Below are positions 1 through 1,832 of a DNA stretch of 1,832 bases, piece after piece. The stretch lies in the NCBI GenBank assembly GCA_000004985.1, contig GG739320.1; one strand, written 5' to 3'. Position 1 is the stretch's first letter. Every line of letters begins with the position of its first letter. The notes under the pieces were generated by a model, which worked only from the letters and a program-made list of their open reading frames with translations, did not search any database and was not told the origin of the DNA. A program made the translations under genes and the position numbers. This DNA comes from Naegleria gruberi. Lineage: Eukaryota.

Positions 1-343
1 CTTCCCAAGCATAAGGACGTTGGTATTCAGGAATAGAATAGCACAATTCAAAAAGATTGTCAATTGCTCTATTGTTGGTGGTCAACTCACAAGCTCTTCT
101 TTCAGAGGCAACTATCTTTGGTCTTGGAGGAACAGGTGGACTGAATGTGAGTGGAGAATCTGTTGAAAATGGAAGAGAGGTATCACTCTTAGAGCTTGAT
201 GGAGTTGCTGGTTGTGAAGAAGTGGAAGGAGTACTGGCAATAATGGTTTGTTCCTTCTTGGTCTTCTTCTTGTCTTTCTTTGGGGTAATGTCAGAGCTTG
301 TCTCTGGTGTTTTTCTCTTCTTGTCTTTCTTTTCAGCAGGCAT
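1..343 (-). CDS. 5' end (first 114 codons) of a protein gene that continues beyond the window start. Residues 1-75 form a Lys/Ser/Thr/Pro-rich basic tail with NLS-like motifs. Residues 76-114 open a DUF262 / GmrSD-N-like (ParB-fold) domain with the motif IPEYQRPYAW.
   Basis: My own reverse-complement translation from ATG 343..341 gives MPAEKKDKKRKTPETSSDITPKKDKKKTKKEQTIIASTPSTSSQPATPSSSKSDTSLPFSTDSPLTFSPPVPPRPKIVASERRACELTTNNRAIDNLFELCYSIPEYQRPYAWE. The frame is open from position 1 to an upstream in-frame stop at 383..385, and 343 is the first in-frame ATG. The plus strand here is strongly T/G-skewed, i.e. the minus strand is A/C-rich Lys/Glu/Thr codons. No CTG codons are present, so the translation holds under either the standard code or the CTG-clade code. 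The domain call rests on recalled similarity to the DUF262 N-terminal consensus (F-x-IP-x-[YF]-QR-x-Y-x-W). Confidence 0.7.
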   Translation of the reverse strand, partial: MPAEKKDKKRKTPETSSDITPKKDKKKTKKEQTIIASTPSTSSQPATPSSSKSDTSLPFSTDSPLTFSPPVPPRPKIVASERRACELTTNNRAIDNLFELCYSIPEYQRPYAWE

Positions 344-733
344 GGAGATGTCTTGCAATGATTTTTTTGATTTTGAAAAGTGTTAAACAACCATTATGAT
401 TGAAGTTTAAAAGATGTGATGTACCCATCAAAAATACTTTTAAGTTTACAACAAGACAACTCGTCAAGAAAAACCATCACAGCAAAAAAATGGTTGACCA
501 GTATTTAATAACGTTTGCTTGAACCAATTGGTCATGGTAGTTCCAAAAAAAGTGTGAATTTCGCCTTTATTTTTATCTTTAAAATTTTAGGTGGGTAATC
601 ATTACTGATTATCTTGATACAATCTTGATGTAATTAAACATAATTTTTACCATATAAACTAGATGTTATTTAGTACCTGTTATGTTAATAGTGTGTATTA
701 AAAAACAAAAATGAAATAAAGAGAAACAAAAGC
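344..733 (-). promoter_or_regulatory. Pol II promoter / 5' intergenic region of the DUF262-like gene. Contains poly(dA:dT) tracts, a palindromic double CCAAT site (ACCAATTGGT, 523..532) flanked by a TGACCA/TGGTCA inverted pair, GATA-type repeats (607..630) and TATA-like A/T blocks (566..585, 643..648).
   Basis: A7 tracts at 482..488 and 545..551. The 10-bp perfect palindrome accaattggt presents CCAAT on both strands about 180 bp upstream of the ATG. TGACCA at 495..500 pairs with TGGTCA at 528..533. ATCTTGAT is directly repeated at 611..618 and 622..629, carrying GATA/GATAA cores. These are motif-level observations only. Confidence 0.3.
701..731 (-). terminator. RNA polymerase III terminator: oligo-T runs immediately downstream of the tRNA 3' end.
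   Basis: Minus-strand sequence after the discriminator reads GC TTTT G TTT CTC TTT A TTT CA TTTTT G TTTTT. There is a T4 two nt past the tRNA end, then two T5 runs (plus 707..711 and 701..705). Confidence 0.7.
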
Positions 734-814
734 TGCAGAAGGTGGGATTTGAACCCACGAAGCTTGCGCAGTAGAACTTGAGTCTACCCCCTTTGACCAC
801 TCGGGAACCCCTGC
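734..814 (-). tRNA. tRNA-Leu (anticodon CAA), class II with a long variable arm, intronless, no encoded CCA.
   Basis: The minus-strand sequence GCAGGGG TT CCC GAGTGGTCAAA GGG G GTAGA CTCAAGT TCTAC TGCGCAAGCTTC GTGGG TTCAAAT CCCAC CTTCTGC A folds as a cloverleaf. Acceptor stem is 7 bp (two G-U pairs), D stem 3 bp, anticodon stem 5 bp perfect with a 7-nt loop carrying CAA at 780..778 and G37, T stem 5 bp with T loop TTCAAAT, and a 12-nt variable arm containing a GC-GCAA-GC mini-hairpin. Discriminator A. Confidence 0.93.
745..755 (-). promoter_or_regulatory. Pol III internal promoter B box (GGTTCAAATCC) of the tRNA-Leu gene. The A box (TTCCCGAGTGG) lies at about 797..807.
   Basis: Matches the eukaryotic B-box consensus GGTTCGANTCC and the A-box consensus TRGCNNAGTGG, at the canonical positions within the tRNA. 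Confidence 0.8.
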
Positions 815-869: not shown

Positions 870-1083
870 AATAAAAACAAGTCAAAAAAAGAATGGGTAT
901 TAGCAGATGTAATGGCACCTATAGAACGTGAATTGGTATTTATCACCAACCCTCTACAACATAGACACGAAATTCTATTGATCGTCGGGAACGGGTCGAG
1001 CTGTCTTTTAGGACCTAACTAGACCAGCAATAGAAGATCTTGATATCGGTTTAATACTTGGGTTATTTTACACCCTGAAGTTT

Positions 1084-1206
1084 TGCCTTCACCAAATTCA
1101 CAACAATAAATTGTGGTTTGCTCTCATTTTCCATTATCTTGTGAATAATCACTTGAATTGTTGTAAAGAAAACCAAGCAAGGTGCTAAGAGAGTTTGGTG
1201 AAGGCA
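1084..1206. repeat. 13-bp perfect inverted repeat (TGCCTTCACCAAA at 1084..1096, TTTGGTGAAGGCA at 1194..1206) bracketing a 97-bp AT-rich spacer. Possible MITE-like or foldback element, or a structured RNA/DNA hairpin.
   Basis: Exact reverse-complement match read directly from the sequence. It extends to 15 bp with one mismatch. A chance 13-bp perfect IR within 100 bp is improbable in 1.8 kb. Confidence 0.55.
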
Positions 1207-1497
1207 CGTCAAGAATATGTGAAAAAATATATTAAATCAATGAACAATATCTTACTATCTTATTTAAAAGTTTAAATCAATAAACAAGATTTCATTATTT
1301 TGTTTTGGCTTGGAAAAATAGTTCAAAAATATTGGCAACACAATCAACAAATTCTTAGAGTTTTCACACATCTTAACTCCAAGAATTTTTCCCCACATTC
1401 ATCATCATGATTTGGAAATTATTTTATTATTCAAGTTGGTAAACCATCATCGGAACAACTACCAATCATCACCATGTAATATTATTTGTGGAAAAAT

Positions 1498-1572
1498 CTG
1501 AAAATAGTGAAATTCAATATTTTCACTAAAATCATCATTACCAGATTCATATAATAATTGAATTAGTGAAAT
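1498..1572 (-). other. 3'-UTR stem-loop (8-bp stem TAGTGAAA/TTTCACTA, 8-nt loop, 1505..1528) built from the 8-mer TAGTGAAA, which occurs three times: 1505..1512 (+), 1521..1528 (inverted), and 1564..1571 (+) overlapping the stop codon.
   Basis: Read directly from the sequence. The hairpin lies 35-58 nt downstream of the TAA of the 1563..1832 gene in its transcript sense. A/T-rich context (TATATG, ATTATTA) is consistent with a yeast 3'-end formation region. Confidence 0.4.
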
Positions 1573-1832
1573 CTCGGATTTCCATACCTTTCAAAGGCTA
1601 CCTTCACAGCAACAACCTTTCCTTTATCTAACTTGTACAAACAAGGATAAATTCCATCTCCAATTGCAGTAGAAGAGTAAACACCAAATGGAAACATGGT
1701 GCAATCATCATTTTGGTTTTCAGCCATGATTTGCAGAATTGCATCCTTCCACTCTAAACTTTCTTGATTGGTATTCTTGAACAAATTATTATCTTCATAC
1801 TTGTCTCCATCAATGAATCCAATTCCATGATC
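1563..1832 (-). CDS. 3' end (89 codons plus TAA stop at 1565..1563) of a protein gene whose 5' part lies beyond the window end. Hypothetical protein of unidentified family.
   Basis: The minus frame is open from the window edge: DHGIGFIDGDKYEDNNLFKNTNQESLEWKDAILQIMAENQNDDCTMFPFGVYSSTAIGDGIYPCLYKLDKGKVVAVKVAFERYGNPRFH*. The supplied 73-aa ORF begins at a TTG (plus CAA at 1782..1784) shown as M, and the true frame continues upstream. Composition looks protein-like and non-repetitive. Confidence 0.6.
   Translation of the reverse strand, partial: DHGIGFIDGDKYEDNNLFKNTNQESLEWKDAILQIMAENQNDDCTMFPFGVYSSTAIGDGIYPCLYKLDKGKVVAVKVAFERYGNPRFH

What the first reader, a model, noticed from the sequence alone, without database searches (positions are those of the whole stretch)
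119..343. Eukaryote-type basic, disordered N-terminal extension with two NLS-like clusters grafted onto the DUF262-like domain
Residues 1-75 run MPAEKKDKKRKTPETSSDITPKKDKKKTKKEQTIIASTPSTSSQPATPSSSKSDTSLPFSTDSPLTFSPPVPPRP. Two Lys clusters, KKDKKRK at 5-11 and KKDKKKTKK at 22-30, fit the shape of a bipartite or monopartite classical NLS. They are followed by a Ser/Thr/Pro-rich linker with many S/T-P sites that could be proline-directed phosphorylation sites. Bacterial DUF262 proteins have no such tail. Its presence argues the protein is targeted to the nucleus and is regulated, rather than being a recent, inert bacterial insertion.
Basis: partly seen in the sequence, partly recalled or inferred. 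Interest (0 to 1): 0.55.

Follow-up and report, generated by a model that had tools for sequence, protein, structure and literature searches.

The report
Lysine-rich tail on a DUF262 gene
A gene of a mostly bacterial DNA-sensing family (DUF262/GmrSD), sitting in what looks like an AT-rich eukaryotic genome, starts with about 80 extra unstructured residues whose two lysine clusters fit nuclear-import consensus patterns; this is a plausible but untested and fairly ordinary adaptation of a foreign-type gene.

Summary
On the minus strand an ORF starts at ATG 343..341 and runs off the window at base 1 (114 codons). Residues 1-75 (343..119) read exactly as reported.

Homology to prokaryotic and phage DUF262/GmrSD proteins begins only at about residue 84. 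In eight comparator loci (five or six distinct genes) the IP[DE]YQRPY.W motif starts 23-32 residues after the start codon; here it starts at residue 104. So a 71-80 residue extension is real.

The tail is lysine-rich (1-31), then Ser/Thr/Pro-rich (33-75), and is predicted coil. It matches monopartite and bipartite classical NLS consensus patterns. Both lysine clusters are encoded by one perfect 17-nt repeat spaced 51 nt apart, which points to a local duplication.

Three parts of the interpretation are unsupported or unproven:
- S/T-P sites are no more frequent than composition predicts.
- No orthologue or homologue of the tail was found anywhere.
- The source organism is unidentified, and translation and nuclear import are untested.

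A eukaryotic origin is inferred from the tRNA-Leu type, 62% non-coding DNA and no match for a 32-nt stretch of the tRNA in either collection. The window ends before the catalytic motifs.

Verdict: a new member of a known kind, of modest interest.

The parts
1..343 (-). 5' part of a protein-coding ORF (114 codons, cut off by the window edge). It encodes an N-terminal tail followed by the start of a DUF262/GmrSD_N domain.
   Evidence: Translation. In-frame TAA at 385..383 and a single in-frame ATG. GC is 0.41-0.43 here against 0.27-0.31 in the flanking non-coding DNA.
119..343 (-). The reported tail, residues 1-75. It is low in complexity and predicted to lack regular structure.
   Evidence: AlphaFold2 single-sequence model: coil 1-78, helix 79-102. 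Uversky plot places 1-75 in the disordered field, though the Ser/Thr/Pro-rich half (33-75) alone falls on the folded side; TOP-IDP is 0.24-0.43 in the tail against 0.04-0.05 in the domain. AAG:AAA is 10:3, as in the rest of the coding sequence (7:1), and the synonymous-codon score is best in this frame.
311..331 (-). Lysine cluster 1, KKDKKRK (residues 5-11). Contains KKRK.
   Evidence: K(K/R)X(K/R) matches at residues 5 and 8. It forms the upstream half of the bipartite pattern KR-X10-PKKDK / RK-X10-KKDKK.
254..280 (-). Lysine cluster 2, KKDKKKTKK (residues 22-30), preceded by TP, which makes TPKK.
   Evidence: K(K/R)X(K/R) matches at residues 22 and 26. TPKK is the only full S/T-P-x-K/R site. 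Tandem Repeats Finder reports a period-12 unit at 254-276.
265..281 (.). Copy 1 of a perfect 17-nt direct repeat (TCTTCTTGTCTTTCTTT on the plus strand). It encodes KKDKK of cluster 2.
   Evidence: the repeat finder family D1/D2, 100% identity, spacing 51 nt = 17 codons. None of 5000 codon shuffles reached a 17-nt repeat.
316..332 (.). Copy 2 of the same 17-nt repeat. It encodes KKDKK of cluster 1.
119..247 (-). Ser/Thr/Pro-rich segment, residues 33-75 (29 of 43 residues are S, T or P). Probably a flexible linker.
   Evidence: No secondary structure is predicted. S/T-P sites are not enriched.
2..94 (-). Start of the region homologous to prokaryotic DUF262/GmrSD_N proteins (residues 84-114). It includes the IPEYQRPYAW 'QR' motif at window 5-34.
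   Evidence: Pfam PF03235, residues 96-114 matched to profile positions 11-24, E 0.0063. PADLOC Orf5, HEC-06 and SspE models. Alignment A1 with I104, P105, Y107, Q108, R109, P110, Y111 and W113 invariant. 92 plasmid records matched by tblastn, mostly under CDS annotated as DUF262.
383..385 (-). In-frame TAA that closes the frame 14 codons upstream of the ATG.
734..814 (-). Context: tRNA-Leu(CAA). It has no intron and no encoded CCA, and TTTT starts 2 nt after its 3' end.
   Evidence: ARAGORN. Rfam RF00005, 48.7 bits. Trailer GCTTTTGTTT. A 32-nt stretch of it is absent from 185,579 prokaryotic species genomes and from IMG/VR.
1563..1832 (-). Context: the last 89 codons and the stop codon of a second gene, weakly DUF4241-like.
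   Evidence: Pfam PF14025, E 0.011, matching the end of the profile. tblastn to a Priestia megaterium CDS annotated as DUF4241, 31% identity over 82% of the query, E 0.8.

Best explanation
The window holds the 5' end of a DUF262/GmrSD-family gene in an AT-rich, most likely eukaryotic nuclear genome. DUF262 is a ParB/Srx-fold NTPase domain that senses modified DNA in bacterial defence proteins.

Shown:
- The protein starts about 71-80 residues ahead of where its prokaryotic relatives start.
- The extra stretch is a lysine-rich segment (1-31) followed by a Ser/Thr/Pro-rich segment (33-75), with no predicted regular structure.
- The lysine clusters meet the monopartite and bipartite classical NLS consensus patterns.
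- Both clusters come from one 17-nt unit repeated in frame 51 nt apart.

Inferred:
- The ancestral start codon was lost, and translation now begins at the only available in-frame ATG (343).
- The new leader grew by local duplication of AAG-rich DNA.
- The basic part serves as an importin-alpha-type nuclear import signal. It may also act as a non-specific DNA-binding tail, carrying a DNA-acting enzyme to nuclear DNA, with the Ser/Thr/Pro part as a flexible linker.
For: - ORF anatomy and the single in-frame ATG.
- Extension relative to eight prokaryotic or phage loci and to family profiles.
- Coding-like GC step at the ATG and matching synonymous codon use.
- Non-random basic clustering and NLS consensus matches (with the consensus quoted from PMC5288373).
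- Coil prediction for residues 1-78.
- The 17-nt in-frame repeat.
- Eukaryote-like context: the tRNA-Leu has the CCGAG-GGTC-AAGG D-arm and a T-run terminator, only 38% of the window is coding or tRNA, there are no ORFs in the 390-nt and 749-nt spacers, and a 32-nt stretch of the tRNA has no identical match in prokaryotic species genomes or viral contigs.
- The role of DUF262 as a modified-DNA sensor comes from PMC12065111 and PMC4619093.
Against: - No orthologue or homologue of the tail exists in 5.8 billion clustered or 1.84 billion representative proteins, so conservation is untested.
- The organism is unidentified, and both protein genes in the window belong to mainly bacterial families.
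- Three of the six frames are open over the tail, so the open frame is weak evidence.
- NLS consensus matches have high false-positive rates, especially in lysine-rich proteins of AT-rich genomes, and can fail in vivo (PMC5288373).
- The context of the ATG (T at -3, C at +4) is not a strong Kozak context.
- The DGQQR motif and any nuclease domain lie beyond the window, so whether the gene is intact is unknown.
Confidence: 0.5

Rival explanations
1. The tail is translated but is a functionally neutral low-complexity leader. It arose as a by-product of start-codon relocation and slippage in an AT-rich genome, and its NLS-like patterns follow simply from lysine richness.
For: - The perfect 17-nt repeat and the period-12 microsatellite-like unit indicate recent slippage or duplication rather than a long-conserved signal.
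- No homologue of the tail was found anywhere.
- S/T-P sites occur at the level expected from composition.
- Predicted NLSs often fail in vivo.
Against: - Basic residues are strongly segregated into the first 31 residues (P = 9e-5).
- The combination of patterns is rare in shuffles (0.6%).
- A DNA-acting enzyme of more than 500 residues would need active import to reach nuclear DNA (inference from the 566-576-residue relatives).
Confidence: 0.22
2. The tail is not part of the mature protein. Either the locus is a decaying or untranscribed foreign-gene relic, or the real gene model uses another exon or start, so 119-343 is UTR or intron.
For: - Only 114 codons are visible, and the open frame is uninformative here.
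- The start context is weak.
- No matching protein has been called in any public assembly searched.
Against: - The conserved QR motif block is intact.
- There is no in-frame ATG nearer the domain and a stop lies upstream, so this ATG is the only way to translate the domain from this exon.
- GC and synonymous codon use in the tail match the coding sequence, not the spacers.
- No polypyrimidine-AG acceptor is evident on the purine-rich coding strand (read directly from the sequence).
Confidence: 0.13
3. The window is not from a eukaryotic nucleus but from a giant virus, an archaeon or an unusual bacterium. The basic tail would then act as a DNA-binding tail, or as a signal for a host nucleus, rather than as an endogenous NLS.
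For: - Both protein genes belong to families that are mainly prokaryotic.
- The GGTCAAAGG D-loop of the tRNA also resembles archaeal tRNA-Leu (from my own recollection, not tested).
- The CpG observed/expected ratio of 0.32 is also seen in some low-GC prokaryotes (own knowledge).
Against: - A 32-nt stretch of the tRNA is absent from 185,579 prokaryotic species genomes and 2.9 million viral contigs.
- Tail-specific and DUF4241-like peptide patterns found nothing in viral contigs.
- 62% non-coding DNA is atypical for prokaryotes and most giant viruses.
- There is no Shine-Dalgarno-like sequence before the ATG.
- Promoter-like and terminator-like sites occur at shuffle level.
Confidence: 0.15

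Closest known systems
GmrSD-type DUF262-DUF1524 proteins (Type IV modification-dependent restriction enzymes; related BrxU, SspE and PADLOC 'Orf5'/'HEC-06' proteins)
   Same: The N-terminal block ...(helix)...IPEYQRPYAW, containing the family's 'QR' motif, aligns at 40-53% identity with the first ~35 residues of 566-576-residue prokaryotic and phage members.
   Different: This protein carries 71-80 extra N-terminal residues that none of the comparators can encode. The genomic context is not a defence island. The DGQQR motif and the HNH domain cannot be seen because the window ends.
Eukaryotic GmrSD homologues noted by Machnicka et al. 2015 (three eukaryotic organisms among 613 complete genomes, e.g. 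Thalassiosira oceanica; PMC4619093)
   Same: A DUF262-family gene in an apparently eukaryotic genome.
   Different: That paper reports no N-terminal basic tail or localisation signal. No sequence relationship to those proteins could be tested here.
Classical importin-alpha NLS (SV40 PKKKRKV; nucleoplasmin bipartite KR-X10-KKKK)
   Same: KKRK and KR-X10-PKKDK / RK-X10-KKDKK satisfy the consensus patterns quoted in PMC5288373.
   Different: Acidic residues sit inside both clusters (KKDKK). Function is untested and the organism is unknown.
Histone H1-type S/T-P-K-K basic tails
   Same: A TPKK motif and lysine-rich disordered sequence next to a DNA-acting domain (the comparison itself is from my own knowledge).
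   Different: There is only one such motif, and no alanine/lysine/proline repeat pattern.
Prokaryote-derived nucleases in eukaryotes said to have gained nuclear signals (e.g. Fanzor/TnpB)
   Same: The same evolutionary logic: a bacterial DNA-acting enzyme acquiring a eukaryotic targeting leader.
   Different: This is recalled from memory. The one Fanzor paper I opened (PMC10432273) mentions only engineered NLS tags. There is no sequence relationship.

Membership tests
DUF262 / GmrSD_N (PF03235) | N-terminal conserved block containing the 'QR' motif, (I/V)P-x-(F/Y)QR-x-(Y/F)-x-W | tested here: met
   IPEYQRPYAW at residues 104-113, with eight of its positions invariant across the window protein and four comparators. 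The same motif is present in L001-L009.
DUF262 / GmrSD_N (PF03235) | Score above Pfam's gathering threshold | tested here: inconclusive
   17.1 bits against a cut-off of 33.2, E 0.0063. Only profile positions 11-24 of 199 lie inside the window.
DUF262 / GmrSD_N (PF03235) | (I/V)DGQQR NTP-binding motif and FxxxN motif (PMC4619093) | not testable with these tools
   These motifs lie about 40-50 residues past the QR motif in the comparators, beyond base 1 of the window. The window is the whole source.
GmrSD two-domain Type IV restriction enzyme | C-terminal DUF1524 HNH nuclease domain (E/D-H-N-N) | not testable with these tools
   It lies outside the window. Exact-sequence lookup of the neighbouring ORF found no longer contig.
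GmrSD two-domain Type IV restriction enzyme | Location in a prokaryotic defence island or mobile element | tested here: not met
   The neighbours are a tRNA-Leu, 390-nt and 749-nt ORF-free spacers and a DUF4241-like gene.
Classical (importin-alpha) NLS | Monopartite consensus K(K/R)X(K/R), or four consecutive basic residues | tested here: met
   Matches at residues 5, 8, 22 and 26; KKRK at 8-11.
Classical (importin-alpha) NLS | Bipartite consensus (K/R)(K/R)-X10-12-(K/R)3/5 | tested here: met
   KRKTPETSSDITPKKDK (starting at residue 9) and RKTPETSSDITPKKDKK (starting at 10). Found in 7% of shuffles.
Classical (importin-alpha) NLS | The protein is made in a cell that has a nucleus | tested here: inconclusive
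   The evidence is indirect: tRNA type, T-run terminator, low coding density, and no prokaryotic or viral match for a 32-nt stretch of the tRNA. The organism was not identified.
Classical (importin-alpha) NLS | [quoted passage not shown] | not testable with these tools
   This needs a reporter fusion or a binding assay.
Proline-directed phospho-regulated region | S/T-P sites in excess of what composition predicts | tested here: not met
   Six observed against 4.4 expected, P = 0.23. One full S/T-P-x-K/R site.
Intrinsically disordered region | Low hydropathy, high net charge, low complexity, no predicted secondary structure | tested here: met
   The Uversky plot places 1-75 and 1-32 in the disordered field, but the 33-75 half alone falls on the folded side. 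Window entropy is 2.5-3.1 bits over most of the tail. AlphaFold2 gives coil for 1-78 with pLDDT 53-69. No dedicated disorder predictor was available.

The most novel reading that the evidence does not exclude
A eukaryote has domesticated a GmrSD-like, modification-sensing restriction enzyme and sends it to its own nucleus through a newly evolved bipartite NLS. That would be a bacterial anti-phage defence protein re-used as nuclear genome defence, for example against viruses or mobile elements with modified DNA. The tail would be caught in the act of being built by duplication of a 17-nt lysine-coding unit.
Probability: 0.1. Interest if true: 0.65.

Novelty: new member of a known kind. Interest (0 to 1): 0.3.

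Why it matters
If the tail is a working NLS on an intact GmrSD-like enzyme, this would be one more bacterial defence family taken up by eukaryotes. It would also give a clear small example of how a transferred gene gains a targeting signal: a relocated start codon plus local duplication.

As the evidence stands, it is a truncated gene of unknown host with a plausible but untested signal. Lineage-specific basic leaders on foreign-type genes are a familiar pattern, so its value is mainly as a lead for whoever holds the full assembly.

Tried and rejected
Searches that found nothing useful:
- All three word-indexed protein searches found nothing: the 114-residue protein, the neighbouring 89-residue fragment, and residues 69-114 at E <= 10.
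- The exhaustive phmmer search of 1.84 billion representatives returned only a 3862-residue low-complexity protein matching the Ser/Thr/Pro stretch.
- Exact-product lookup of the neighbouring ORF found no contig.
- Scans of viral, metagenome and genome contigs with the protein returned only ordinary prokaryotic or phage DUF262 genes: L001 (refetched as L007), L002, L003, L008 and L009.
- A 32-nt stretch of the tRNA was absent from genome and viral collections.
- blastn of the window against phages gave no match.
- The PDB search gave only a compositional match to CWC15.
- NCBIfam gave nothing meaningful.
- The literature searches found no study of eukaryotic DUF262 proteins beyond the count in PMC4619093.

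Ideas considered and rejected:
- An organellar origin, because the tRNA is not bacterial-type.
- A ciliate genetic code, because read-through of TAA gives non-coding-looking sequence.
- Hidden genes in the spacers, because all frames are dense with stops and there are no Pfam hits.

Not resolved:
- Codon use (AAG, GGA, CCA, AGA, CAA, ATT) fits several AT-rich eukaryotic groups and did not identify the taxon.
- The tRNA comparison with human, yeast and E. coli sequences (74%, 60% and 61% identity) used sequences recalled from memory. It is only a lead.

Full report
**What is in the window**

The window is 1832 bases and is the whole source. It holds three features, all on the minus strand.
- An ORF starts at ATG 343..341 and runs off the window at base 1, giving 114 codons.
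- A tRNA-Leu(CAA) lies at 814..734.
- The last 89 codons of a second ORF end with TAA at 1565..1563.

The two spacers, 344-733 and 815-1562, are dense with stops in all six frames, and their longer ORFs match no Pfam family. Only 38% of the window is coding or tRNA.

**The observation**

The finding's coordinates 119-343 are residues 1-75 of the first ORF, read on the minus strand.
- KKDKKRK is residues 5-11 (window 311-331).
- KKDKKKTKK is residues 22-30 (window 254-280).
- An in-frame TAA lies 14 codons upstream of the ATG.
- There is no other in-frame ATG in the visible 114 codons.

The composition splits sharply.
- 13 of the 15 K/R residues lie in the first 31 residues (hypergeometric P = 9e-5).
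- 29 of the 43 residues in 33-75 are S, T or P.

**Is the tail really an extension?**

Yes. Family profiles place the start of the conserved family at about residue 82-86.
- Pfam GmrSD_N (PF03235) matches only residues 96-114, to profile positions 11-24 of 199. E is 0.0063 and the score is below the gathering cut-off, because the window ends there.
- PADLOC full-length models of DUF262 defence proteins (Orf5, HEC-06, SspE; 558-766 positions) place their positions 6-21 at window residues 87-99.

I collected comparators from several sources:
- an IMG/VR contig (L001, refetched as L007);
- a metagenome contig (L002);
- a Veillonella MAG with the same N-terminal sequence as L002 (L003);
- a Halomicrobium plasmid (L004);
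- a Klebsiella plasmid (L005);
- two further viral contigs (L008, L009).

In seven of the eight loci the IP[DE]YQRPY.W motif starts 23-32 residues after the start codon. An in-frame stop lies 27-55 residues upstream of the motif in those seven, so none of them could encode a long leader. The eighth, the Limosilactobacillus fragment L006, has no start codon before the motif and a stop 15 residues upstream.

In the window protein the motif starts at residue 104. In alignment A1 the prokaryotic proteins begin opposite window residues 74-84. The extension is therefore 71-80 residues long.

**Is the tail translated?**

This is inferred, not shown.

Evidence for:
- ATG 343 is the only in-frame start that can translate the conserved block from this exon.
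- GC drops from 0.43 in the tail to 0.27 just upstream of the ATG.
- Lysine codon choice in the tail (AAG:AAA = 10:3) matches the rest of the coding sequence (7:1), and the synonymous-codon score is highest in this frame.

Evidence against:
- The coding strand is poor in T, so two other frames are also open across the region. The open frame carries little weight.
- The ATG has T at -3 and C at +4.
- No public gene call matches the protein.

**The nuclear-signal reading**

The tail matches K(K/R)X(K/R) at residues 5, 8, 22 and 26. It contains KKRK. It also matches the bipartite (K/R)(K/R)-X10-(K/R)3/5 pattern starting at residues 9 and 10. The consensus patterns are as quoted in PMC5288373.

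In composition-preserving shuffles:
- four consecutive basic residues occur in 7%;
- the bipartite pattern occurs in 7%;
- the three tested patterns occur together in 0.6%.

So the arrangement is more than lysine richness alone. The same paper shows that consensus-predicted monopartite NLSs can be insufficient in vivo in a non-model eukaryote. This is a lead, not a demonstration.

On disorder:
- AlphaFold2 (single sequence) gives coil for residues 1-78 and a helix at 79-102.
- Simple charge-hydropathy and TOP-IDP measures agree that the tail as a whole is disorder-prone, although the Ser/Thr/Pro-rich half taken alone falls on the folded side of the Uversky boundary.

**The phosphorylation reading**

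This is not supported. Six S/T-P dipeptides are seen against 4.4 expected from composition (P = 0.23). Only TPKK at 20-23 fits the full S/T-P-x-K/R consensus.

The two lysine clusters are encoded by the same perfect 17-nt sequence (plus strand TCTTCTTGTCTTTCTTT) at 265-281 and 316-332.
- The spacing is 51 nt, which is 17 codons, so the repeat is in frame.
- None of 5000 codon shuffles produced a repeat that long.
- Tandem Repeats Finder also reports a period-12 unit at 254-276.

The 'bipartite' layout therefore most likely arose by a local duplication. Identity at synonymous positions suggests it is young. This fits a leader still being built from AAG-rich DNA. It also weakens the argument that the tail proves long residence in the host.

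**Where does the window come from?**

This is unresolved. Several features point to a eukaryotic nuclear genome.
- The tRNA-Leu has the CCGAG-GGTC-AAGG D-arm typical of eukaryotic and archaeal, not bacterial, tRNA-Leu. This is from my own knowledge. Alignment to sequences I recalled from memory gave 74% identity to human, 61% to E. coli and 60% to yeast, which is only a lead.
- The tRNA has no encoded CCA and is followed by TTTT two bases after its 3' end.
- Long AT-rich ORF-free spacers surround it.
- AATAAA lies about 135 nt after the stop of the second gene.
- No Shine-Dalgarno-like sequence precedes the ATG.
- Promoter-like and terminator-like sites occur at shuffle level.
- A 32-nt stretch of the tRNA is absent from 185,579 prokaryotic species genomes and from IMG/VR.

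Two things argue for caution.
- Both protein genes belong to mainly prokaryotic families. The second is weakly DUF4241-like by two independent weak hits.
- Neither protein has any relative in the protein collections searched.

The CpG observed/expected ratio is 0.32. Codon use favours AAG, GGA, CCA, AGA, CAA and ATT. These fit several AT-rich eukaryotic groups and do not name one.

**Most likely mechanism**

Established knowledge: DUF262 is a ParB/Srx-fold NTPase domain that senses modified DNA. In GmrSD and SspE it activates a fused DUF1524 HNH nuclease (PMC12065111; PMC4619093).

My best reading has four inferred steps.
1. A gene of this family came to reside in a eukaryotic genome and lost its original start.
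2. It is now translated from an upstream ATG.
3. The new leader's basic part acts as an importin-alpha-type import signal, and possibly as a DNA-binding tail.
4. The Ser/Thr/Pro part acts as a flexible spacer before the first helix of the domain.

The extension, its composition, the consensus matches and the repeat are shown. Translation, import, host identity and enzymatic intactness are inferred or unknown.

**Comparison with what is known**

Eukaryotic GmrSD homologues have been noted before: three eukaryotic organisms among 613 complete genomes, including Thalassiosira oceanica (PMC4619093). I found no study of their function or localisation.

Membership of DUF262 is supported by the QR-motif block. 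It cannot be completed, because the DGQQR, FxxxN and HNH motifs lie beyond the window.

I rate this as a new member of a known kind with a lineage-specific leader. Interest is modest (0.3) unless the full gene and host show an intact, nuclear, GmrSD-like enzyme.

Noticed in passing
window 1084-1206: A long hairpin in the spacer between the tRNA and the DUF4241-like gene. The 16-nt arms are 94% complementary and lie 91 nt apart. Folding 1078-1212 gives about -39 kcal/mol on either strand, z = -3.8 and -4.3 against shuffles. There is no Rfam match. It could be a foldback-element relic or a small-RNA precursor.
   Followed up: partly
window 1563-1832 (minus strand): The neighbouring gene fragment is weakly DUF4241-like (Pfam E 0.011 to the end of the profile; tblastn E 0.8 to a Priestia CDS annotated as DUF4241). 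So both protein genes in this small window belong to mainly bacterial families, which hints at a cluster of foreign-type genes.
   Followed up: partly
window 734-814 (minus strand): The tRNA-Leu(CAA) has no intron, although this isoacceptor carries one in yeast and human (from my own knowledge). TTTT starts 2 nt after its 3' end. A 32-nt stretch of it matches no prokaryotic species genome or IMG/VR contig.
   Followed up: partly
whole window: Strong CpG depletion: observed/expected is 0.32, against 0.74 for GpC and 0.61 for TpA. This is compatible with a CpG-methylating host but is not diagnostic.
   Followed up: no
window 1232-1305: Two adjacent 34-nt direct repeats, 79% identical and spaced 40 nt apart, in AT-rich non-coding DNA.
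   Followed up: no
window 900-1100: A patch of GC 0.40 inside spacer that is otherwise 0.26-0.31. It has no ORF and no Rfam hit, and the fold z-score is only -2.2 on the minus strand.
   Followed up: partly
window 57-390, other frames: Two further frames are open across the tail region (112..390 minus, 92 aa; 57..386 plus, 109 aa). This follows from the T-poor coding strand. Neither frame has a Pfam match.
   Followed up: yes
L006 2501-2608 (Limosilactobacillus mucosae plasmid NZ_CP058956.1): An unannotated fragment carrying the IPDYQRPYAW motif, with a stop 18 residues later and no start codon. It looks like a DUF262 pseudogene remnant.
   Followed up: no
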